Below are positions 2,547 to 62,877 of a DNA stretch of 64,000 nucleotides, piece after piece; position 1 is the first letter of the stretch; each line of letters opens with the position of its first letter. This DNA comes from Eledone cirrhosa (taxonomy: Eukaryota): the NCBI GenBank assembly GCA_964016885.1, contig OZ024742.1:254014001-254078000 (forward strand), given 5' to 3'. The translations under genes and the position numbers were made by a program. The notes beneath the pieces were generated by a model. That model was given only the letters and a program-made list of their open reading frames with translations, searched no databases and had not been told where the DNA came from.

Positions 2547-4942
2547 GTAATATATACTTACCTATGCAAATAAGTAATGGTATAAACACAACATATACTG
2601 AGCTACCACGCCAAGACGTAAAATACCCATGTATAGATCGTACTATCCGTTAGGGTATAATGTGGCGCTGTAATACAGGAAAGTTTTGTGCAATTTATAT
2701 TTACAAGCCGAAATTGCCTCAGATTTTTTGTTTAAGATGTGGCCTGTGGCGTAGAGTATTTCCAAGGCCTCAGCGGCGCAGAGGTCACTTGGTCTTTAAT
2801 TTCCGTTATACGATCTAGCCCTAGCTAGGATCTCCCAGTGTAACTTATATCGAGTGTGGTTGTCTTTTAGACTCCAGATATAAGCTGAAAGTGACGTCAT
2901 ATTCTTTCTTAGAGGGTAACGAAAAAAATGGGTATGCATGTAAAGACGCTGCTCGAATCTATTGACGGTTAACCCTATGTAGGCCCTACGGGACGTGGGT
3001 GTTACAACCCTACATTTGCAGACAATGTTACTAGAAAGGCATTTCCCGGATCGGGGCAATCAACCCGATTCCTACAATTACAGTTAGTACTAACTACAGG
3101 GTTGCACGTGTTCCTACGGCTAGATAGTTTAGTCAAATTTGAAGCCGTGATGTTATGTGCAAGGTTAGGAGTCGTAGAGTAAGACATTTTAATAGTATTT
3201 CTATTAAAAATGTTACTATATTTATGTGTAGGGGGAAATGCTTCGTAATAAAGAATAGAAAAATCTTAGCTAATGGTGTGGCCACCTCCATATTATATGG
3301 TGGGTTATACCATATAATGCGACGGCATCGATTTCTTCTAGGTTTATCCTCGTACTCTGTATATGCTACCTTATCGACAAATCCACTCCGAGCAAGAGCT
3401 TCATTGTAATATGTGGAATGGTCGTTGAAAATATGCTCGTTAGTAGATAGACGGGAAAGCCTCAACGAAACGTTTCTTACCAGGTTCTTGGTTATGCTGG
3501 CACGATGGTTGGAATGCTTACTTATGTAATTAAGCTTATCATTCGGCTTTCTATACGGGTAATACAAGCCATTCTATAAATTGAGGGTAACGTCGAGGTA
3601 ATTAACGACCGAGAGGTTGGCCTCAACCTGTATAGAGAGGTTGAAGCCTTTAAAGAAGGTTGTGAGTTTTTTTCTGAACCTGTCGCAAGCACGAGGGCCG
3701 CACTTTGTCATGGTCAAAAGAACATCATCGCGGTACAAACCACCGCCTGCGTTGGGGAATTCGTCCTTGATAGAGAAAAGAAGGAAAAGGCCGATAAGAT
3801 CAGTAACCTCCGCAGAATCGCTGGCACCCATACTCACGTCGAATGGGGTACTATTGGATTTTTTAATCCAAATAGAGTCATCGAAATTAATCACCGACTT
3901 ACGGGCATTGAGGATGACATCAACTTCGAAATCCTTAACCACTGTGAGTGTTTTAGCGAAATTGATAGCTCTAAGGAGAAGTGGTAAAGTGATGGAGGTG
4001 TAGTAATTATTGATGTCGAATTGGATAAAACGGCAATGTTCCTTGTTGCATATGCCGTTGAACCAATCAATCACCGCGAAAGAATTGTTCCACAGTGTAA
4101 GAGGGGCCAAACTTCTAATTTCAGGTATAATTCTATCAAGAATCCTTTTCCTAAGTCTACCTAAATCGGACTTCGTAGGGTTAATAAGCCGAATAGAGGG
4201 GTTGTTCGGAAAATTGGATTTGTGATCCTTCAGGTTAAAGTGGGGAGAAATAGGGTCCAGAGGTTCGGTCCGGTCCAGGATGTTGAGATCGGAGGTGATT
4301 TTAAACCCAGCATCGTTGATTTCATTGATGACTAACCGATTAGTTTACGGTAATCCTTAGTACAGCATTATGTAGTAGTTGATGGTAAGTACTGCGCTCC
4401 ACTTGATATAGGTTGCCAGTTTTGTCGGAATGGACGTGCACGGCATTAGAATCCTTAATAGAACGAATTCTATTCTTCAGGTCCTGCTGGAAGGAATTGC
4501 TCCTATTCCGAAATTTGATACTCCGTATGAGTTCCAAGACATCATTTTCAAAGGGTAGCAATGCTGGGTTACACGGAGGGTTATTTTAGGCAATTTCGGC
4601 TTGTAAACATAAATTGCACAAAACTTTCCTGTATTACAGCCCCACATTATACCCTAACGGATAGTACGATCTATACGTTGATATTTTACGTAATCACGTG
4701 GTAGCTAAGTATATGTTGTGTTTATACCATTACTTATTTGCATAGGTAATTATATATTACCTGTATGTTTTGTGAAGGGAAAGTTTCCACGAACCAAAGT
4801 ATCGTCTTCCTCTCTTCCTCCGGTTGCAACGCTTTTTGAAATATCCACTTCTGCGTTTACAGATTGACTTTGTTAGTTTCAGAAGATCCCGTTAAGGGTG
4901 AAAGCAGCAATTCTTTGCTTAAACTTTAATCTGTTATTATAA

Positions 4943-8384: not shown

Positions 8385-8454
<70 letters not shown>

Positions 8455-8491
8455 ATTAAATAAATGGAAATTATATTTATAAAACCATATT

Positions 8492-8557
8492 TATTTCATT
8501 ATATATATTTCAGGGATATCATATTAAAAATATGTTATGCCTTCTTCAGACAAAATA
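8492..8557 (-). ncRNA. Type I hammerhead ribozyme (mirror copy)
   Basis: Reverse complement of 8693-8758. Confidence 0.85.
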
Positions 8558-8692
8558 CAATATAGACAGTCTTATAAATAAATAGATTCGACATACCGTT
8601 CAACATCGACTTGCATTTGAAAAGTTGATTTGAATGCAAGTCGATGTTGAACGGTATGTCGAATCTATTTATTTATAAGACTGTCTATATTG

Positions 8693-8758
8693 TATTTTGT
8701 CTGAAGAAGGCATAACATATTTTTAATATGATATCCCTGAAATATATATAATGAAATA
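8693..8758 (+). ncRNA. Type I hammerhead ribozyme
   Basis: tattttgt-CTGAAGA-agg..catatt ttt aatatg..cct-GAAA-tatat-ATA-atgaaata; 8-bp stem I with two GU pairs, palindromic (AU)n stem III. Confidence 0.85.
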
Positions 8759-9054
8759 AATATGGTTTTATAAATATAATTTCCATTTATTTAATATCGT
8801 AAATATACTCCAAATACTTGTTGAGTGCTTTTATATCAGTTATAAATATTTACTCGTTGTAACCCAACAATTTAAATATAACTTTCCATGTATATATATA
8901 TATATATATATATATATGTTTAATATAGAAATGGCTTCTACAGGACTAGAACTTTCATTTCTAGTTATACTCTGCCATCTATTGAGTACCTTACTTACTC
9001 TGGTTACCCCCGATTGAACCTGGGATACACACACACACACACATGTATATATAC

Positions 9055-10830: not shown

Positions 10831-10891
<61 letters not shown>

Positions 10892-10901
10892 ATATAGAAA
10901 T

Positions 10902-10952
10902 GTCTTCTACAGTACTAGAACTGTTTCATTCGAGAGAAATCATCAGGAAGCC
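10902..10952 (-). ncRNA. Type I hammerhead ribozyme
   Basis: Minus strand: ggcttc-CTGATGA-tttc tctc gaat-GAAA-cagt tctagt act-GTA-gaagac; related copies at 8925-8965 (partial), 61791-61935 and 62751-62877. Confidence 0.82.
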
Positions 10953-12906: not shown

Positions 12907-13329
12907 TTATATATAGGGTTTAAAGTTTTGGAACGAGTGTCGGAAGCGGTGTTGGCAATTTGCGAACACTTCTGATTTTTTATTAAGGAGATTATGTTTA
13001 GAGAAGATGATAGTATGGGTCTCTAGTAGACAGAGGTTACAAAATTTATCAGGTGGTTTGTACGATGTTGCACTACCTACCACTTCCCATTTAAGTGTAT
13101 ATATTTTATTTTTAGTTTTTAGATAGTGTATGTAGCTAGATAGTGAAGTGGAGTTGGCTAGACTGTGTTTTTTGAAAGAGTGGAGGTGCGAATTGTATCT
13201 AGTTTTGAAGCAGTTAGAAGTGGAGCCTATGTAGGTTTCAGAAGAGCTGTTAGTTGTGACTGTGCATGAGTATATGATATCCTTGGTTAAGCATTTTTTA
13301 TCTAAAGGGCAGGTTCTACTTGATTTATC
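12907..13329 (-). CDS. PLE GIY-YIG endonuclease domain (no start codon, absent from the ORF track)
   Basis: Hand translation: CPLDKKCLTKDIIYSCTV..ETYIGSTSNCFKTRYNSHLHSF..TSLSSYI..LKWEVV..CNLCLLE..LLNKKSE..CQHR..; similar to ORF 40592-41107. Confidence 0.88.
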   Translation of the reverse strand, partial: DKSSRTCPLDKKCLTKDIIYSCTVTTNSSSETYIGSTSNCFKTRYNSHLHSFKKHSLANSTSLSSYIHYLKTKNKIYTLKWEVVGSATSYKPPDKFCNLCLLETHTIIFSKHNLLNKKSEVFANCQHRFRHSFQNFKPYI

Positions 13330-35694: not shown

Positions 35695-38600
35695 TGTCGA
35701 CAAATACCCAAAACTCCGAGTTGGTACCATTAATGTAGGCTCAATGAAAGAAAGAGCAGGAGAAATCGTAGAAATGCTAGAGCGAAAGGAAATTGATGTA
35801 TGCTGTGTGTAAGAGACTAGATGGAGAGGAGAGTCTGCCAGAGTCCTTGTAGGAAAAAGTCGGTGCTACAAATTTTTCTGGGTGGGAAATGACGATGGGA
35901 TGGGTGGTGTAGGTATACTACTAGCTGACAAGTGGGTAGATAAAGTAATCTCAGTGTACAGGGTAAATGCAAGAATCATTAAACTCAGACTAGTCCCGAA
36001 TAAAACAATTACCACAATAATATCAGCTTACGCACCCCAATCGGGGCTGCCAGACGAACTTAAGGATAGGTGTTACGAGTCCCTAATGCACACTACTGCT
36101 CTAACAGACGACAATGACTTCCTAATCATCGCAGGAGATTTTAACGGACACGTAGATAAACACTACGATGGCTTCAATAGAGTACATGGAGGCCATGGGG
36201 TTGGCACAAGGAATGAGGAAGGATTCAGACTTCTAGAATTCTGCGAAGCCAATGACATGTCGATATGTAACACAAACTTTAAAAAACCCGACAACCACCT
36301 GATCACCTATAGATGAGGGGAGAACTCTAGTCAGATAGATTTTATCCTCATCAGAGGATGTGACAGATGGACAGTCGTAAACACAAAAGCCTTCCCTAGT
36401 GAGGAATGTACATCCCAACATAGCTTAGTTATCAGCGACCTCACGGTCAGAACTAGACGAACCCGGAAACAGAGCCCATCCTGGAGAAGAAAGATATGGA
36501 AGCTGAAAGTCCCCTCAAACAGTAACAGATTTAAAGATATTTTACTCAACGCCTACGACAGTAAAGAAGAACAGATAGAGACATTTAATGTAGAAGAGAA
36601 CTGGGAGTTCCTAAAAAATAATTTACTAGAGGCGACGGATGAGGTCTGTGGCTGGAGTAAGACCTCAAGCAGGAGGAGAGTGACTTGGTGGTGGAACAAT
36701 AAGGTAGATGAAGCAGTTAAGGCCAAGAGACAGGCATGGAAAGAATGGAAGAACGGGGGGAGCAGGGTACATTACATAGAGACCAAGAGGGAAGCTAGGC
36801 GACAAGTATACTTAGCTAGGAGGGAAGCAGAGGATAGAAAATTCAAGCATGTTTTGCAACGTGAGGACCAGAAACAGGAGGTATTCAAGATTGCGAGGCA
36901 GTGTGTCAGAGATAGTTATAATGTCATTTGAGAGAAGTGTATCCGGAATGATAAAGGTGAGCTTGCCCTCACAAGTGCTGACAAGAAAGATGCATGGAAG
37001 AGTCATTATGATAAATTACTAAATGAGGAGAATGCATGGGAAGAAGAGACCCTACCACAAGTAGACCCTATAGAGGGACCAGCAGTACAAGTCAGCAGCA
37101 GCGTAGTAAGTAAGGCAATCAAAGATATGAAGATGGGGAAGGCAACCGGTCCATCGGGTATAGCTGCCGAGATGCTGAAGGCAACTGGATCTGTAGGTCA
37201 CACTATAACCACACGTATTGTTAACCAGGTAATACTAGGTGTCATACCAAAAGATTGGTGCAGTAGCATCATTGTCAATTGCTACAAAGGTAAAGGTGAT
37301 GCACTAGATAGAGGAAACTATAGAGGTATAAAGTTGATGGACCAGGTCATGAAAGTAACAGAAAGAGTTATAGCACAGTTAATTAGGGACCGGGTGAAAA
37401 TAGACGAGATGCAATTTGGGTTTGTACCAGGAAGAGGTACCACTGATGCCCTCTTCCTTGTGAGGCAATTACAGGAAAAGTACCTAGCTAAAAGTAAGCC
37501 TCTCTACTTGGCATTTGTCGACCTTGAGAAAGCCTTTGACAGAGTTCCACATGCTGTAATCTGGTGGGCTTTAAGAAAACTAGGAGTAGATGAATGGCTT
37601 GTGAAAGCGGTACAAACCATGTATAGGGGAGCAGTCAGCAAAGTTAGGATTAGCAATGAGTATAGCGAGGAATTTAGCGTACAGGTTGGGGTCCACCAGG
37701 GCTCTGTTCTTAGCCCCCTCCTGTTCATCATAGTCCTGCAGGCAATAACAGAGGAGTTTAAGACCGGATGCCCATGGGAACTCCTGTATGCTGATGACCT
37801 CGCACTTATAGCTGAATCTATGGTAGAACTAGAGAAGAAATTCCAAACTTGGAAGCAGGGACTAGAAAGAAAGGGGTTCAAAGTCAACATGACAAAGACT
37901 AAGGTCCTTGTAAGTAGACGAGAAAACAGAACCCAGATCCCCTCAGGGAAATGGCCTTGCTCAGTATGTAGGAAAGGTGTAGGTAGGTACTCCATTCTCT
38001 TCCCCAAATGCAAACAATGGGTACACAAGAGATGTAGCGGGATCTCAGGAAGCTTAATTAAGAATGTAGGCTTCACATGCAGAAGCTGTGCTGAGACAGC
38101 AAGCAGCAAACAGCCACAGGAAACAAGTACCACCAATCTCTGGGAGGGTTCTGTAGAAACAGTAGACAGCTTCTGCTACCTAGGTGACCGAATTAGCAGC
38201 GGAGGTGGGTGTTCAGAAAGTACAATAACTAGGGTAAGAACGGGATGGAAGAAGTTTAGGGAACTGCTACCACTGCTAGCTGCAAAAGGCTTCTCCCTCA
38301 GAATGAAAGGCAGACTGTATGATGCGTGTATCCGAACAGCAATGTTGCATGGTAGTAAGACCTGGGCGCTGAAGGTGGAAGACTTACGTAGATTAGAGAG
38401 AAACGAAGCCTGCATGCTCCGATGGATGTGTAACAGTAATATACGTTAACGACAATGTATAAATGAATTGAGAGAGAGACTGAGCATAAGAGGAATCAAA
38501 TGCTGTGTGCAGGAGAGGCGGTTGCGCTGGTATGGACATGTGATGCGTATGAAGGATGACAGCTGCATAAAAAGGTGCAGAGCACTAGAAGTTGATGGAA

Positions 38601-40216: not shown

Positions 40217-40396
40217 TTGTTTCTACTTTAGGCACAAGGCCAGCAATTACCCAGTGCATTACTGGTACTTTATTTTATCGACCCCGTAAGGATGAAAGGC
40301 AAAGTCAACCTCGGCGGGATTTGAACTCAGATCGTAAAGGGACGTAACTATGCTTGAAAGCATGGCGTCCGACCCTCTACCGATACTGCCAATCCA
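40217..40396 (-). mobile_element. Nin/Deu-like tRNA SINE
   Basis: Same head and core as 18185-18377. Confidence 0.87.
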
Positions 40397-41486
40397 AACA
40401 ATACTGTTTGCCATAATAACAATGATAGAAACCAGGATAATAATGATAGTAATAACAATAACATTAACAATATCAACACCATAGAGACTAACCACAGCAT
40501 TAATAGTGGAACTGATGACCAGGATAGAAACTGTAGCAGTGATAACAACAGCAGTAGAGGGAGCCATAATAAGAACAATAGAAATAACACCATGTCGCAA
40601 AACTATATCTGTAATAATGCCAACCGCAACAATGACGACAGCAGTGATAGTGGTAATGATAGTAGTAATGATAGCAGCGAACCTCACCACATTAGAAATA
40701 GCAACAAAAGGCATTACAATTGTCGAAACCTCAACAACTGTCCACTCCAGGGCCACTGCTTGATTAGAAATGTAATCTACAAATGCACTCTGATGAGTTA
40801 TAATAGCATAAAGTCATATATAGATGCCACTTCTAATGAGTTCAAGACTAGATTTAGATCGCATCTCCTCTCATTTAGAAATAAGAAACTCAGATTCTCT
40901 ACCTCCCTTGATAATTATATTACACTATTAACTGAATCTAACATTAGCTACACCACACAATGGGGAAAAGTTGATCAAGCAACCCCATATAATTTTAGGA
41001 ATAATTGCCAGCTCTGCCTAATGGAAACATACTTTATAGTGAACTCACCCCAGGAACTCATTAATAGTCGGGCTGAAACAGTCATCAATTGCAACCACAG
41101 ACTATAGCACTCGTTCTACAAGTGGTCTCCAGAACAAGAATAACATCCTATCCCCACAGCTATCTGCATCGCACCACCATTTAGTCCACCTACAATAAGT
41201 AGGTCAAAGTGCAGTGTCTAATGACGCTATTAACCCTCCATCTGATTTTTACTGAGGCACTGCCCATCACCTACTGAGTTAGGCTCACCCTGCTAAACCT
41301 TCCCCCAAGCTGGGATAGGTTAAAATAAATTTGAGGGTAATTTAATGCCTAGCATCGTACAGTTACCTCCCCTAGTGGATTATGCCCCTTTCACTGACGC
41401 CATTGTTGTTATTTTTTTCGTTTATCATGCAAGAAATGATTCTCAACGGTATTTATACTTATTGATGACATTATACAATCAATTAT

Positions 41487-41525
41487 TTCTCTGACGAACC
41501 CCTGTGGGCGAAACATGTATAAGAG
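41487..41525 (+). ncRNA. Minimal hammerhead motif in PLE 3' UTR, partly decayed
   Basis: ttct-CTGACGA-accc ctgt gggc-GAAA-catgtata-agag; core intact, stem I/III register imperfect. Confidence 0.6.
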
Positions 41526-41619
41526 CTATATAAAGAACTTGTTTTAATGGCTTGTAACTCCTTCATTCTTTCATTTGCTTATATATATATATGTATGTAT
41601 GGCTAAGAACATATTTTCC

Positions 41620-48933: not shown

Positions 48934-48990
<57 letters not shown>

Positions 48991-48994
<4 letters not shown>

Positions 48995-49453
48995 ATTAAA
49001 TAAATGGAAACTATATTTATAAAACCATATCTATTTCATTATATATATTTCAGGGATATCATATTAACAATATGCTATGCCTTCCTCAGACAAAATACAA
49101 TATAAACAGTTTTATAGATAAATAGATTCGACATACCGTAACAACATCGACTTGTATTTGAAAAGGTTGATTGACTGCCAAATCAACCTTTTCAAATACA
49201 AGTCGATGTTGTTACGGTATGTCGAATCTATTTATCTATAAAACTGTTTATATTGTATTTTGTCTGAGGAAGGCATAGCATATTGTTAATATGATATCCC
49301 TGAAATATATATAATGAAATAGATATGGTTTTATAAATATAGTTTCCATTTATTTAATATTGTAAATATACTCCAAATATTTGTCGAGTGCTTTTATATC
49401 AGTTATAAATATTTACTAGTTGTAACCCAACAATTTAAATATAACTTTCCATG
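48991..49453. mobile_element. Second asymmetric fold-back element with an HHR in each arm (49032-49097 minus, 49256-49321 plus)
   Basis: Arms 48991-49172 / 49181-49362, 8-nt spacer; same start and end nucleotides as 8451-8890. Confidence 0.9.
49256..49321 (+). ncRNA. Type I hammerhead ribozyme
   Basis: tattttgt-CTGAGGA-agg..catatt gtt aatatg..cct-GAAA-tatat-ATA-atgaaata. Confidence 0.85.
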
Positions 49454-50242: not shown

Positions 50243-52043
50243 ATATTTGGGGAGGGTCATATTTGCGTAATATTGCCAGAATTAATAACAGCACACACTC
50301 ACTGTTTGGTTGGTTTTCGCTTCTCGCTGTCTTTTATATATATATATCTGCGATCTAACTTACTCGGTCCTCAATGTTGCCATTGACTGACCGGCGGTCA
50401 AAAATAATACAGATACAATATAGACAAACACATATATATATAGTTTACATAATTTACATAAATCTTTCGTTGCACATCTGCAACATCGTCAGTGGTGTTA
50501 TATTCATTGTTCCTCCTGTTGTGTTGTATGTCTACGCCATTTTTTTTGTTCAGTCTGTCTATATATTTATTTATTTATTTGCTTGTTTGTTTATCTTATT
50601 TTATTTTGTCTTCTTTGCGCATGCGTTTGCGTGTGTGTATAGTGTTATGTGTGATGTGTGACTAGTGTGTACAGTGTTGTGTCTGCTGGGTGACTAGTGT
50701 GTGTTTATGTGCTTGTGTATGTATTTATTTATCTTATTTTATTTTATTTAATTTACTTATTTATTTATACTTCTCTTAGGTCAGTGTTGTTTGTTTGGGT
50801 GTTGTTGTTGTTCCACTCATTCTTTCTGTTTAGCTTTGCTCTTCTAATTTCTATTTCACTGGCCTCTCTGATTTGCCTATCTGCTGGGTCATTTCTATGT
50901 TTAGATATTATTCTAATTTCTATGTTGTCTATGTTACCGTCATGTTGTTGTCTAGCATGTTCGTATAGTACTGACCCGTTTTTTCGTCCTTTTAGTTCCC
51001 CCCAGTGTTGGTCTATCCTTTCACCTATGCTACGAGCTGTCTCACCTATGTATGTTGTTGTCGTGTTTCTGCAAGTACCCTCTGTACATCTTATGCTATA
51101 GACTACGTTTCTAGTTTTACAGTTTATCCGGGGGTTCACCTTACATATGATACATTTCCTATTGGTACAGTGGGTTTTCTTAAAAGGGTAGGTTCTGCTG
51201 ATCAGGGATTTTATGGTGGTTCCTGGCTTTTCTACCACCTTTATTTTTAAGTGGGTCTTTCTCAGGGCCTTTCTACACTGGTTAGCTAATTTCCCTCCAG
51301 GGGTGGCGTCCACAAACATGACACTCTGATATCTCTGGTTGTCGTACCATGATGTGGCCTTCCCTATCTTATGTCTAGCCCTATCTAAGCTATTCCATGA
51401 TTTGCTCCTGTATAGTGGGCAAATTCCTTTCATGTCCAGTTCTATGAGGGTCTTATACTTTTCCATGGCTCCTTCGTATACTCTGACTCTGTCTCTTTGG
51501 TTGTAGCCAGAGAACTGCATGCGGTTGATGAAGTGTTGGATGTGTCCTTCCATTTCTGTTGGGTCGCACATGCTGGACACATTCTTCATCACTCGTACCA
51601 AATCTGCGATCAGAATATTAAACTTAGCACTACTGGACATTGCTGAGTTTTTGAGTATCAGGTATTTGGAGGCCATGGGTTTAGCATAGTGTGAGTGGAG
51701 AATTTGGGCTCTCTCGTCTATAGTGTTAATCCAGAGTTCTGTGTCTAATACAGGTAGTCTATTGCAACGAAAGATTTATGTAAATTATGTAAACTATATA
51801 TATATGTGTTTGTCTATATTGTATCTGTATTATTTTTGACCGCCGGTCAGTCAATGGCAACATTGAGGACCGAGTAAGTTAGATCGCAGATATATATATA
51901 TAAAAGACAGCGAGAAGTGAAAACCAACCAAACAGTGAGTGTGTGCTGTTATTAATTCTGGCAATATTACGCAAATATGACCCTCCCCAAATATAACAAT
52001 ATCTGTTTCGACACACGATTTCATATAAAAAACCTCGCAAAAC
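50238..52043 (-). mobile_element. 5'-truncated Penelope-like element with inverted 3'-end copy, flanked by (TA)n
   Basis: Inverted repeat 50238-50474 / 51763-52002 around a GIY-YIG ORF. Confidence 0.92.
50765..51676 (-). CDS. PLE RT thumb/linker + GIY-YIG endonuclease (uninterrupted 303-aa C-terminal part)
   Basis: C....C..C linker, NVVYSIRC..TYIGETARSIGERIDQH, RQIREA, LNRKNEW. Confidence 0.9.
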   Translation of the reverse strand: MASKYLILKNSAMSSSAKFNILIADLVRVMKNVSSMCDPTEMEGHIQHFINRMQFSGYNQRDRVRVYEGAMEKYKTLIELDMKGICPLYRSKSWNSLDRARHKIGKATSWYDNQRYQSVMFVDATPGGKLANQCRKALRKTHLKIKVVEKPGTTIKSLISRTYPFKKTHCTNRKCIICKVNPRINCKTRNVVYSIRCTEGTCRNTTTTYIGETARSIGERIDQHWGELKGRKNGSVLYEHARQQHDGNIDNIEIRIISKHRNDPADRQIREASEIEIRRAKLNRKNEWNNNNTQTNNTDLREV

Positions 52044-52186: not shown

Positions 52187-54552
52187 AATAATAATATAAT
52201 AATAATGAAATTATTGTGTACAGTGCTCAGGTGCACTACAACTCATCAAAGGTGCATGTATAGTACATAGAATAATGTACAAATGTCAGGAAAATAAACA
52301 GTGTATGAGTCATGATATAATAACAATAACAATAATGAAATATTGTGCACAGTGCCCAGGTGCACCACAACCCATCAAAAAAGTGCATGTACAGTACATA
52401 GGGCAATGCACAAACATCAGTAAAATGAACAGTGCACACATGTGTGCATGTGTATGGAAGGGGCACATCAGGTGTAGTTTTGGCGTATTTCGGGAAGCAT
52501 GAGTGTCTTAAAGGATGCAGTGTCTCGGCAGCTAACAATTGACGCAGGCAGTTTGTTCCATGTTTCAGCAACTCTGAGCGTGAAAAAATGTCTGCGAAAG
52601 TCATGGGAGCTGTGCTGTTTTCTTATCTTGTAGGCATGTCCACGTGTGTTAGACACATGGAGATCAAAGAGGCGCTCAGGGTTGCAGTTGGCGAGATGGT
52701 TAAAAACTTTGTGGGTATTCACCAAGTCCACTGCCAGACGTCGGAGCTTCAATGAATCCATGCCCAGGGAAGCAAGGCGTTCAGAGTATGGTAGGTGTCT
52801 GATGGAGGGTATGCGCTTGGTTGCACGTCTCTGAACAGTTTCCAGGAGGTCAATGTTCCGAGCAAGATAGGGGTTCCAGACTGATGATGCGAATTCCAAG
52901 TGTGGTCGCACCATAGCTGTATACAGTTTTAAATAGATGGCTGGAGAGCGGCTAACAAAGGTCTTGCTGAGTGATGCCAAGACACCCTCGGCCTTCTTGA
53001 CAATCTTAGAGACATGCTTTGTCCAACGCAAATCGTTGCTGACAGTAATGCCTAGGTCACGTTCACAAGAGGACTTTTTGATGTCAGTGTTGTGGAGGGA
53101 GTATGTGGACGCTGGATTTTTCCTTCCAAAATGCATGGTGGTACACTTGTCCACAGCCAGCTTCAGTTGCCAGTCTGTGATCCATTGCTGCATTGTGTCC
53201 AGGTCTGATTGTAGGAAAGAGTTGTAAATTTCAGGATCAGTCCTTTTGATTTCAAGGTACAGCTTGATGTCATCTGCATATTTTAGTACCGTGGCATTCT
53301 GTAAGTTGGCATCTATGTCATTAATATATGCCACAAACAAAAGAGGACCAAGAACAGATCCCTGTGGTACACCAGATGACATCTCATATGGTGAAGAATG
53401 CTGTCCTAGAACCGTGACTACTTCCCTTCGGCTGAGAATGAAGGATTTCAGCCAGTCGAAAAGATCATCCCTCACACCCATTGCAGAGAGTTTTGCCATA
53501 AGTCTTTTGTGTGGCACAGAATTAAAAGCCTTAGCAAAGTCAAGGTAAACAACATCCACCCATGAGCCGCTGTCAGTGATCCGGGTGATGTCCTCAAGGA
53601 ACTCGATAAGCTGATCACAGCAGCTGGAGTTAGGGATAAATCCAAACTGTGAGGGCCGGATGAGGCTGTGAGAGCTCCAGAAGTTCCAAAGTGTTTCTCT
53701 GACACAGGATTCCATCAGTTTGGCCATACAGCTAGTAAGACTGACTGGACGATAGTTGACAGGTGACATGCGGTTGCCCTTTTTGAACAGGGGAATGACA
53801 CTGGCAGTTTTCCACTGCTCCGGAGTAGCACCATTGCTGAGACAGTATTGAAAGAAAAAAGAAAGCTGGCGCAAAAGGAAATCCCCGCCACGTTTGAGAA
53901 GCAGGTATGTCACACCATCAAGACCAGGGGAGGCATAGTTGCGCATATTCTTAAGGTGACGTCGCAACATTGCAGGTGTAAATTCCATAGTTGTTATGGA
54001 ATTTGATGTTAGAGATGGTGGAGATGGTACATTCTGGTTTTCAACAGTAAAAATACTTGCATAGCACTCAGCAATGAGTTCTGCGCATTCCTTGGGATCG
54101 TCAGTGATCTGGCTTGTGTGGGGATTGCGAAGAGGACCAACTGGAGAGTGAGGTCTCTGCTTTGAATGAACATATTTCCAGAACACCTTACTGTCAGGAT
54201 TGGTTGCGATGCACTGTTCAAATTCAAGCACTGCCTTCTTTGTCACTTGCTTGAGATGGTTAGAAGATTTATTCCGCTTTTTTCTGTTGGCATCTGATCT
54301 ATGCAGTTTATATTCCCGTTCAGCGTTCCGACGTTCTTTCCTGGCAAGTCGGACTGCTGAAGTTTCCCAGATTGCACTTTTGGGGTGGTTATTTTTCCGC
54401 TTCCGTGGCACTGATGCTGCACACGCTATCCATATTGAGTCCAGGATGCTCTGGAGTATAGAGTTCACATCTCCAGAGTTATACATCTCATGCCAGTTTG
54501 GGCGCTGTAGCTCAGTATAGATTGCATTTTTGTTTTTAAAATCCAAATTCAA
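52187..54552 (-). mobile_element. Young 5'-truncated CR1-like LINE with 3' UTR and (TTA)n tail
   Basis: Uninterrupted 694-aa RT ORF; 3' end shared with 61143-61589. Confidence 0.93.
52468..54552 (-). CDS. CR1-like reverse transcriptase (APE missing)
   Basis: NYRPVSLTS, QFGF, VYLDFAKAF, SGVPQGSVLGP, YADD, RDLG, VRPHLE, TRGH, FFTLRV..WN.LP. Confidence 0.95.
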   Translation of the reverse strand: MNLDFKNKNAIYTELQRPNWHEMYNSGDVNSILQSILDSIWIACAASVPRKRKNNHPKSAIWETSAVRLARKERRNAEREYKLHRSDANRKKRNKSSNHLKQVTKKAVLEFEQCIATNPDSKVFWKYVHSKQRPHSPVGPLRNPHTSQITDDPKECAELIAECYASIFTVENQNVPSPPSLTSNSITTMEFTPAMLRRHLKNMRNYASPGLDGVTYLLLKRGGDFLLRQLSFFFQYCLSNGATPEQWKTASVIPLFKKGNRMSPVNYRPVSLTSCMAKLMESCVRETLWNFWSSHSLIRPSQFGFIPNSSCCDQLIEFLEDITRITDSGSWVDVVYLDFAKAFNSVPHKRLMAKLSAMGVRDDLFDWLKSFILSRREVVTVLGQHSSPYEMSSGVPQGSVLGPLLFVAYINDIDANLQNATVLKYADDIKLYLEIKRTDPEIYNSFLQSDLDTMQQWITDWQLKLAVDKCTTMHFGRKNPASTYSLHNTDIKKSSCERDLGITVSNDLRWTKHVSKIVKKAEGVLASLSKTFVSRSPAIYLKLYTAMVRPHLEFASSVWNPYLARNIDLLETVQRRATKRIPSIRHLPYSERLASLGMDSLKLRRLAVDLVNTHKVFNHLANCNPERLFDLHVSNTRGHAYKIRKQHSSHDFRRHFFTLRVAETWNKLPASIVSCRDTASFKTLMLPEIRQNYT

Positions 54553-54569
54553 TAAACAGACCAGGATTT

Positions 54570-54629
54570 TTTCATTCTGAGGATTGAAAGCAAAATCCTT
54601 TGCTTTTAAGAAACCACTGGTAAATGGAA
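54570..54629 (+). ncRNA. Type I hammerhead ribozyme
   Basis: tttcatt-CTGAGGA-ttgaaagcaaaa tcc ttttgcttttaa-GAAA-ccactg-GTA-aatggaa; 12-bp stem II, GUA site. Confidence 0.88.
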
Positions 54630-54923
54630 TAATTGCCTTATGTTGTTTATTACATAACTATGTATATATATATACGGTATTCAACAAAAGAAAACACAGG
54701 AGAAGAATGAAGTACAATGATGCTACGTATAAGTTAGTTTAAATTAGTTTAACGCTTAATATTATTGGCAAAGAGTCTTAAGGTTTCAGAAATTAATCCT
54801 TCATTGGAACTTAGAATGAAAGATAGAGGAGAAATAGATGGATAGATGAGAGTAAGAAAGAGAAGAAGCAGGATAAAATGTTTTCACAAGAGGAAAGCAC
54901 ATGTGTTCTCTTAGCCATATATA

Positions 54924-61142: not shown

Positions 61143-61589
61143 TAATAATAATAATAATAATAATGAAATTATTGTGTAAAGTGCTCAGGTGCACTACAAC
61201 TCGTCAAAGGTGCATGTATAGTACATAGAATAATACACAAATGTAAGGGAAGTGAATAGTATGAGTCATGATATACATGTGTGTATGTGTATGGAGGGGG
61301 AACATTAGGTGTAGCGTTGGCGAATCTCGGGAAGCATGGAGGCCTTAAAGGATGCAGTGTCTCGACAGCTAACAACCGATGCAGGTAGTTTGTTCCATGC
61401 TTCAGCAACTCTGAGCAGGAAAAAATGTTTCCGAAAGTCATGGGAACTGTACTGTTTTCTGACTTTGTGGGCATGCCCACGTGTGTTAGACACATGGAAA
61501 TCAAAAAGGTACTCAGGGTTGTTGTTGGCAAGATGGTTAACAATTTTGTGGGTGTTTACCAAGTCAGTTGCCAGGCGTCGGAGCTTCAA
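61143..61589 (-). mobile_element. CR1-like LINE 3' fragment with (TTA)n tail
   Basis: 94-aa ORF near-identical to the C-terminus of 52468-54552. Confidence 0.92.
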
Positions 61590-61636
61590 ATATACAATAT
61601 ATTAATAAATGGAAACAATATTTATAAAACCATAAT

Positions 61637-61702
61637 TATTTTATTATATATATTTCAAGGGCAACCAAGGCAAATTATAGTGCGCTTTCATCAGATAAAA
61701 TA
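61637..61702 (-). ncRNA. Type I hammerhead ribozyme, diverged relative of 8693/49256
   Basis: Minus strand: tattttat-CTGATGA-aag..ctt-GAAA-tatat-ATA-ataaaata; perfect 8-bp stem I. Confidence 0.85.
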
Positions 61703-61790
61703 CATATTTGTTTTATAAATAAATATTGACATACCCGGAAAAAAGACAACCTTAACAGATGAAGTTCCCATGACCACTTTATATATATAA

Positions 61791-61935
61791 TGAACATTTA
61801 ATATAGAAATGGTTTCTACAGGACTAGAACTGTTTCATTCAATCATCAAGAGTGGTCTTTACATTCCAGATGATTTCATACGAATGAAACAGTTCTAGTC
61901 CTGTAGAAGCTATTTCTATATTAAATTTTCATTGT
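61791..61935. mobile_element. Fold-back of the 10.9-kb HHR family, decayed cores; inverted duplicate at 62751-62877
   Basis: Plus: ttc-CAGATGA-tttcatacgaat-GAAA-cagttctagtcct-GTA-gaag; the opposite arm carries TTGATGA..GAAA. Confidence 0.75.
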
Positions 61936-62672: not shown

Positions 62673-62757
<85 letters not shown>

Positions 62758-62877
62758 GCTTCTACAGGACTAGAGCTGTTTCATTCGTATGAAATCATCT
62801 GGAATGTAAACACCACTCTTGATGATTGAATGAAACAGTTCTAGTCCTGTAGAAACCATTTCTATATTAAATGTTCA

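What the first reader, a model, noticed from the sequence alone, without database searches (positions are those of the whole stretch)
61637..61702. Structure-preserving variation across three HHR relatives supports a functional ribozyme
Seen: cores CTGAAGA (8701), CTGAGGA (49264) and CTGATGA (61694-61688) differ only at N7, the freely variable core position. Stem I changes from tattttgt/atgaaata (two GU pairs) to tattttat/ataaaata (all Watson-Crick). The stem II base changes from agg/cct to aag/ctt while the rest of stem II is rewritten. GAAATATATATA is invariant. Inference: selection acts on RNA structure, not sequence.
Basis: partly seen in the sequence, partly recalled or inferred. Interest (0 to 1): 0.8.

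Follow-up and report, generated by a model that had tools for sequence, protein, structure and literature searches.

The report
Hammerhead ribozymes of a Penelope-like retrotransposon
These repeats are end pieces of a very abundant Penelope-like retrotransposon, and each carries a hammerhead-ribozyme motif whose stems change in matched pairs between families and which likely cuts RNA only as a dimer; the pairing of ribozyme and retrotransposon is already known, but this genome holds about 100,000 copies.

Summary
But the window holds five cores, not three: the copies at 8.7 and 49.3 kb are each perfect inverted pairs, and both belong to one young family.

The motif is a type I hammerhead in the pseudo-LTR of a Penelope-like retrotransposon (RT plus C-terminal GIY-YIG). 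Its protein motifs match the Hydra clade. The genome has 108,513 pattern matches against 222 for the control.

Across 49 cluster representatives, stem II covaries: the five top-scoring column pairs are all structural. The supposedly invariant TATATA also varies (TACGTA, TGCGCA, TGATCA) but stays an 8-nt palindrome, which fits a dimer helix III.

Selection likely acts on transposing lineages, not on these copies. RNA read through both arms is predicted to fold into a 165-184-bp hairpin that blocks the ribozyme. Cleavage was not tested, and folding energies do not favour the active fold.

Verdict: a new member of a known kind, notable for copy number and a conserved C·Y mismatch in stem II.

The parts
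61637..61702 (-). Copy C hammerhead motif: stem I 61702-61695/61644-61637, core CTGATGA 61694-61688, stem II 61687-61657, GAAA 61656-61653, palindrome ATATATAT 61653-61646, predicted cut between 61645 and 61644
61590..61768 (-). Copy C: lone, 5'-truncated pLTR fragment of about 180 bp, without tail and without an inverted twin; its ribozyme type flanks an RT/GIY-YIG ORF on both sides in L072
61620..61720 (-). Predicted distal extension of stem I (11 bp, 61720-61710 with 61630-61620); also predicted in A (14 bp) and B (11 bp)
   Evidence: prediction only
8693..8758 (+). Copy A hammerhead motif (core CTGAAGA 8701; predicted cut after 8750)
8492..8557 (-).
8453..8797 (.). Insertion A: perfect inverted repeat, arms 8453-8617 and 8633-8797, between (TA)n tracts
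8801..8890 (+). About 90-nt tail on one arm only; matches the start of the 5' leader in tandem copy L182
49256..49321 (+). Copy B hammerhead motif (core CTGAGGA 49264; predicted cut after 49313)
49032..49097 (-).
48989..49364 (.). Insertion B: perfect inverted repeat, arms 48989-49172 and 49181-49364, between (TA)n tracts
49364..49453 (+). About 90-nt tail on one arm of insertion B

Best explanation
The motif is a type I hammerhead sequence in the pseudo-LTR of a Penelope-like retrotransposon with Hydra-clade protein motifs, and it likely cuts the element's RNA after AUA only when two copies pair through the 8-nt palindrome. Shown: the motif lies about 50 nt from the short 3' end of insertions and, in tandem copies, 186-218 nt upstream of the ORF's ATG; stem II and the palindrome vary in matched pairs between families; insertions sit in (TA)n, often as inverted pairs with one tail. 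Inferred: two ribozymes, 3.7-4.0 kb apart in one tandem transcript or on two RNAs, form a double hammerhead with exchanged stems I and an 8-bp helix III, probably helped by the element's own protein, and cut out a unit RNA. Inferred: selection acts on parents that transpose, while the window's copies are by-products of truncated reverse transcription. A and B would be silenced by their own hairpin if both arms are transcribed, and C has no partner nearby.
For: Context: the same ribozyme types flank RT+GIY-YIG ORFs as direct repeats in L072, L182, L202, L218 and L219, and as inverted ends in L061-L065 and others. Clade: DKT, RWx, CxCx5C linker, CxxC and CxH, one Cys only in the GIY-YIG core, as defined for Hydra in PMC8557442. 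Covariation: among 1,176 column pairs the top five by G-APC are 10.3-11.3, p3-p6, p4-p5, 10.6-11.6 and 10.2-11.2 (E 8e-5 to 0.008 over 18 tested pairs; only 10.3-11.3 passes over all pairs, E 0.005), with 3-5 minimum switches each. 88.4% of cells are paired versus 75.4% shuffled and 32-56% slid. RNAalifold finds stem II unaided, with two-sided changes in 8 of 8 pairs. Dimer: the two central palindrome positions, which cannot pair within one strand, are paired in 48 of 49 representatives (U-A 29, C-G 13, U·G 5, A-U 1), and a 2-bp monomer stem III costs 2.9 kcal/mol. Lineage variants in the A/B family: 0 at 17 core and palindrome sites versus 5 at 8 unpaired sites (N7, stem II mismatch and loop). 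Precedent for dimer-dependent, weak, protein-assisted cleavage: PMC4209133 and PMC11167929.
Against: No cleavage data. The predicted monomer minimum is not the hammerhead: stem I probability is 0.01 or less in A and B and about 0.2 in C, and z-scores are -1.9, -1.0 and -1.9, or +0.1 for the 66-nt stretch. The double hammerhead lies 7-13 kcal/mol above the free dimer minimum. Rfam gave no hammerhead hit. The lineage-versus-rare contrast was not significant (Fisher p 0.52; 0:3 versus 5:9 after cleaning). The p4-p5 signal is partly built in by my two search patterns, the core letters were imposed by them, and the tree came from the same sequences. In the anole element, ribozyme mutants did not impair insertion in vitro and no RNA-seq reads ended at the cut site.
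Confidence: 0.72

Rival explanations
1. The fold is conserved as a protein-binding or packaging signal (or a dimerisation site) for the retrotransposon protein, and cleavage is rare or incidental.
For: The active fold is not favoured energetically. Pair 10.1-11.1 is G-C in only 17 of 231 copies. In the anole element cleavage is dispensable in vitro and unprocessed RNA is the main substrate. PMC8557442 calls the function unclear.
Against: The catalytic core letters show no lineage variants in the A/B family, which a mere binding site would not obviously need. Related motifs do cleave as dimers.
Confidence: 0.15
2. The ribozyme cuts as a monomer, with a 2-bp stem III stabilised by tertiary contacts or protein, and the palindrome is a side effect.
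For: A long stem II and a distal stem I extension could give loop contacts. A 2-bp stem III motif in axolotl shows some monomer activity.
Against: The central palindrome positions stay complementary across families, which a monomer loop does not require.
Confidence: 0.08
3. The matched changes are a product of shared ancestry and mutation bias (A-to-I editing or transitions in AT-rich DNA), with no selection on structure.
For: Most palindrome changes are transitions, and the representatives are related.
Against: Single-copy variants over 2,992 columns show no A>G excess (37 A>G versus 53 T>C, p 0.25). Pair 10.3-11.3 takes A-U, G-C and U-A forms, which needs transversions on both sides. Slid controls fall to 32-56% paired.
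Confidence: 0.03
4. The window's own copies were domesticated and act on a host transcript.
For: Their cores are intact.
Against: An intact core is the rule for young copies (81 of 102 copies picked by a flank). They sit among repeats and are 97-98% like many other copies. A and B are predicted to fold into one long hairpin.
Confidence: 0.02

Closest known systems
Minimal type I hammerheads of Penelope-like elements (PMC4209133)
   Same: Position in the pLTR, type I topology, long helix II, palindromic positions 15.2-16.2, many families with compensatory changes, opposite-strand pairs 100-700 bp apart, proposed dimer action.
   Different: Here the palindrome is 8 nt, there is no conserved G10.1-C11.1 pair, stem I is 8 bp with a distal extension in the window's families, and a C·Y mismatch is kept at stem II position 4. 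The copy number is 108,513, against the 4,000 and 9,000 called remarkable there.
Hydra clade of C-terminal EN+ Penelope-like elements, including Hydra-1_Obim (PMC8557442, main text and files S1, S2, S4)
   Same: RWx, DKT, CxCx5C, CxxC and CxH motifs, (TA)n targets, ribozyme near the 3' end, often a weak or unpaired first position in stem II. The protein resembles Hydra-1_Obim by eye.
   Different: All 26 Hydra rows of file S2 start stem III with AC and mostly have 3-7-bp stems II. These families start with AU, form a loopless 8-nt palindrome, have units of 3.7-4.0 kb rather than under 3 kb, and have a tail of about 90 nt rather than 30-40.
Poseidon element PAc of the anole (PMC11167929)
   Same: pLTR hammerhead, and two alternative 3' ends that define a tail.
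   Different: Different clade; its cut site is inside the ORF, whereas here it is 186-218 nt upstream of the ATG.
Non-LTR retrozymes of axolotl and newts (PMC7229834)
   Same: Type I hammerheads with a weak palindromic helix III that cleave better as dimers; 126,247 motifs in one genome.
   Different: Those are non-coding tandem repeats of 330-350 bp; these are ends of a coding element, dispersed or in inverted pairs.

Membership tests
Type I hammerhead ribozyme | Core CUGANGA ... GAAA ... UH in order | tested here: met
   five copies in the window
Type I hammerhead ribozyme | Helix II with compensatory variation | tested here: met
Type I hammerhead ribozyme | Helix I closes the 5' and 3' ends | tested here: met
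   8 of 8 pairs possible in the window copies; 81.9% of cells paired in 49 representatives, though covariation is weak
Type I hammerhead ribozyme | Stable helix III within one molecule | tested here: not met
   probability 0.001 or less; only a palindrome able to pair between copies, as in the minimal variant
Type I hammerhead ribozyme | Conserved G10.1-C11.1 pair | tested here: not met
   G-C in 17 of 231 copies; A-U in 153
Type I hammerhead ribozyme | Site-specific self-cleavage | not testable with these tools
   needs an assay
Rfam hammerhead models | Score against a curated model | tested here: not met
   no hammerhead family among 117 matches at E up to 1
Minimal hammerhead of Penelope-like elements | Lies in repeats flanking an RT + GIY-YIG ORF | tested here: met
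   weak Pfam GIY-YIG hit in L072 (E 1.5e-4, just under the cut-off), none for the L064 ORF; YRDD motif seen
Minimal hammerhead of Penelope-like elements | Palindromic helix III / loop 3 | tested here: met
Minimal hammerhead of Penelope-like elements | Cleaves as a dimer | not testable with these tools
   inferred from covariation; energies inconclusive
Penelope-like element | 5' truncation, inverted 5' copy, tail at one end | tested here: met
   22 of 22 listed inverted units (21 distinct) have exactly one tail
Hydra clade | RWK-like and DKT motifs, CxCX5C linker, CxxC and CxH around E/N, no CCHH | tested here: met
   read; RWK appears as RWR, RWT or RWI
Hydra clade | Insertion into (TA)n | tested here: met
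Hydra clade | Groups with Hydra proteins in a phylogeny | not tested
   reference proteins were seen only as supplement text and compared by eye
Non-LTR retrozyme | Short non-coding tandem repeats | tested here: not met
   direct-repeat spacing 3.7-4.0 kb with an ORF between

The most novel reading that the evidence does not exclude
The 8-nt palindrome is a self-recognition code. Co-existing retrotransposon families in this genome carry different palindromes (TATATA, TACGTA, TGCGCA, TGATCA), so a ribozyme can be switched on only by a partner of its own family. The nearly invariant C·Y mismatch in stem II would be an undescribed tertiary or protein contact. About 100,000 copies would then form a natural mutational scan that shows what the ribozyme does in Penelope-like transposition.
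Probability: 0.12. Interest if true: 0.7.

Novelty: new member of a known kind. Interest (0 to 1): 0.33.

Why it matters
Hammerheads in Penelope-like pLTRs are known, but their role is open: PMC8557442 calls it unclear, and PMC11167929 found cleavage dispensable in vitro. This genome offers about 108,500 motifs in 3.0 Gb (about 36 per Mb), in many young families. Covariation at the centre of the palindrome is comparative support for the dimer model, and young intact elements make dimer, family-swap and C10.4 tests easy to design. Many insertions are long perfect inverted repeats, a possible source of double-stranded RNA (untested). The finding does not indicate a new kind of system or a host function.

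Tried and rejected
Rfam scan of the window: no hammerhead hit, only low-complexity miRNA matches.

A-to-I editing as the source of the G·U pairs: rejected, no A>G excess.

Lineage-versus-rare test: not significant. The first version's flank control was inflated by truncation junctions; the cleaned version is too small.

Folding energies as support for the active fold: not obtained. One search left three stem II pairs out of A and B and is superseded; crashed.

Expression and in-vivo cut ends: no RNA holder listed, so no reads were laid.

The ORF had no match in phages or solved structures (one chance hit), and no Pfam RT hit.

Earlier scan notes: nothing.

The Lünse et al. paper on dimer cleavage was not held. 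I saw only its title and a review's summary, so its variants may already include the C·Y mismatch form.

Searches for a printed report of this family (octopus + Penelope + ribozyme; hammerhead ribozyme + octopus; Hydra + Penelope-like + cephalopod + PLE) turned up PMC8557442 as the only directly relevant paper. Subscription papers, Repbase and figures were not visible.

Rows dropped: 19 of 68 clusters were left out of the covariation set by a fixed rule (hexamer must start with T, stem II at least 20 nt). These were other hammerhead types and chance parses.

Full report
OBSERVATION. The three strings are as described. A scan for core plus GAAATATATATA finds five sites: +8701, -8549, +49264, -49089 and -61694. 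A model built later gives exactly these five strong hits with filters off (66-73 bits; the next best is 18; the model was built from relatives, so this lists copies and is not independent proof). A and B are perfect inverted repeats with arms of 165 and 184 bp, between (TA)n tracts, about 90% identical overall. C is a lone fragment, 76-78% identical to them. Over 129 nt A and B differ at 8 sites; the three inside the ribozyme are N7, a stem II mismatch and the stem II loop. Between them three stem II pairs change on both sides (10.2, 10.5, 10.6), while the two stem I changes are one-sided.

ABUNDANCE. The own genome has 3.0 Gb. It is likely an octopod, an inference from the best named protein hit (Argonauta hians, 41%) and the repeat make-up. 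Matches versus reversed controls: TATATA pattern 48,858 versus 175; NNSSNN pattern 28,021 versus 1,239; TRYRYA pattern 108,513 versus 222; a 33-nt 3' flank 14,762 versus 0. These are motifs, not insertions: many insertions carry two.

WHAT IT BELONGS TO. [quoted passage not shown] C-type ribozymes flank such an ORF as direct repeats in L072; A/B-type do so in L182 and L202; TGCGCA-type in L218 and L219. The spacing is 3,676-3,997 bp, and the cut site lies 186-218 nt before the ATG. The ORFs show RWR/RWT/RWI, SDKT, CNCx5C, CxxC before E and CxH after N, with one Cys in the GIY-YIG core. These match the Hydra clade definition, for which an Octopus family with a hammerhead is already listed. The assignment rests on motifs and a by-eye comparison, not a tree. 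Pfam gave one weak GIY-YIG hit for L072 and none for L064. Of 102 copies picked only by the 3' flank, 81 have an intact core pattern (part of that output was cut) and 44 carry a tail. All 22 listed inverted units (21 distinct) have exactly one tail. This matches the inverted 5'-truncated copy and one-ended tail described for Penelope-like elements and the two reverse-transcription start sites of the anole element. Here the ends lie about 50 and 140 nt after the cut site. A and B are extreme cases in which only the pLTR was copied.

COVARIATION. From all fetched loci, 254 core matches were taken without any stem filter and grouped into 68 clusters. 49 were kept by a fixed rule, each represented by one natural copy. 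Paired counts: 10.2-11.2 47 of 49; 10.3-11.3 48 of 49 (A-U 19, G-C 16, U-A 12); 10.5, 10.6 and 10.7 44 each; 10.4-11.4 only 3 of 49 (C·C 31, C·U 11). My own R-scape-like test (G-test with average-product correction; null from substitutions reassigned on a tree) ranks five structural pairs first among 1,176. One passes over all pairs and five over the 18 tested; stem I pairs reach E 0.05 at best. Parsimony gives 3-5 switches per stem II pair and 3 for each variable palindrome pair. The pair-count tool gives 88.4% paired, with 0 of 500 shuffles as high for percent paired, two-sided cells and covariation score, but 66 and 18 of 500 for the two pair-type measures; slid controls give 32-56%. RNAalifold predicts stem II with the position 4 gap, but not stem I. 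Caveats: the sequences are related, the sample comes mostly from the start of one chromosome, the core letters were imposed, and p4-p5 is partly imposed. Within the A/B family (56 copies), variants shared by three or more loci fall on N7 (2), unpaired stem II sites (3), 11.1 (1, breaking the junction pair) and 1.2 (1, G·U to G-C), and on none of the core or palindrome sites, where three single-arm variants occur. This pattern suggests selection on parents and decay of copies, but the formal contrast was not significant.

HELIX III. After GAAA comes an 8-nt self-complementary run. Among 231 copies the hexamer is TATATA 150, TGCGCA 39, TATGTA 22, TACGTA 5 and other 15. Within one strand only 2 bp could form (probability 0.001 or less; cost 2.9 kcal/mol). 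Complementarity at the two central positions makes sense only between two copies. Duplex energies range from -2.2 (AUAUGUAU) and -3.2 (AUAUAUAU) to -10.5 (AUGCGCAU).

AGAINST. The predicted monomers pair the palindrome with the 5' strand of stem I instead. Double-hammerhead energies are -35.4, -32.6 and -34.4 for A, B and C, against twice the monomer minimum of -38.2, -37.0 and -33.6 and free dimers of -43.7, -45.5 and -41.0. Such models ignore tertiary contacts and protein (established knowledge), and published relatives are weak or protein-assisted. A transcript through both arms of A or B is predicted to be one long hairpin, with negligible ribozyme pairing. The inverted twins are on opposite strands and cannot be each other's partner in one RNA.

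MECHANISM. Shown: anatomy, position, abundance, covariation. Inferred: dimer formation between successive pLTRs or two RNAs, cleavage after AUA, release of a unit RNA, protein help. I put this at 0.72; a binding role with little cleavage at 0.15; monomer action at 0.08.

COMPARISON AND NOVELTY. It works like the minimal pLTR hammerheads of PMC4209133 and files with them on position and palindrome. It fails two canonical features (stable helix III, G10.1-C11.1); the first is expected of the minimal variant. It differs from the listed Hydra hammerheads in having U15.2, a loopless 8-nt palindrome and a long stem II with a C·Y mismatch (C at 10.4 facing C or T in 219 of 231 copies). The count approaches the axolotl's 126,247 motifs.

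PAPERS SEEN. PMC4209133: parts 1-2 of 4. PMC11167929: parts 1-2 of 4. PMC8557442: passages, section 11 and supplement parts 1-2 plus search hits. PMC7229834: passages and section 15. PMC6765202, PMC6155905, PMC13282606 and PMC8967140: passages. bioRxiv 10.64898/2026.07.22.740005: part 1 of 5. Figures and the Lünse paper were not seen and may already show this variant. Hammerhead numbering follows the standard scheme from recall.

VERDICT. A real feature and a new member of a known kind. Interest 0.33.

Noticed in passing
window 10890-10952 (-); 61770-61930; about 62700-62830; about 8925-8965: A second type I hammerhead family with a 4-bp stem III (ACAG/CTGT) closing an 8-nt loop, a 3-bp stem II and a short stem I that varies in matched pairs (GATTC/GAATC, GCTTC/GAAG). 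The core is intact at -10946; degenerate inverted pairs lie next to copy C and near 62.8 kb, and a 3' piece lies beside insertion A. Its parent element was not identified.
   Followed up: partly
window 41481-41531 (+): Weak hammerhead candidate about 380 nt after an ORF (40358-41107) that looks by eye like a GIY-YIG domain with a cysteine linker; no Pfam hit.
   Followed up: partly
window 13957 (-): Hammerhead candidate with another 8-nt palindrome, ACAATTGT, and a 4-bp stem I.
   Followed up: no
window 50765-51775 (-), 12907-13329 (-), 3133-4344 (-): Fragments of other Penelope-like ORFs; 50765-51775 has two cysteines inside its GIY-YIG-like core, unlike the Hydra-type elements.
   Followed up: partly
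L180, L192: The two arms of one inverted insertion differ at 11.1 by a variant that also marks a lineage, hinting that the arms can be copied from different pLTRs of a tandem template.
   Followed up: no
L214:1129-3591 (+), L219:1571-3994 (-): Long open ORFs (821 and 808 codons stop to stop) in the TGCGCA family, suggesting recent activity.
   Followed up: partly
window 52468-54657 (-), 36317-38449 (+), 61270-61585 (-): LINE-type ORFs and fragments, named by eye only; the piece next to copy C resembles the 3' end of the 52468-54657 element.
   Followed up: no
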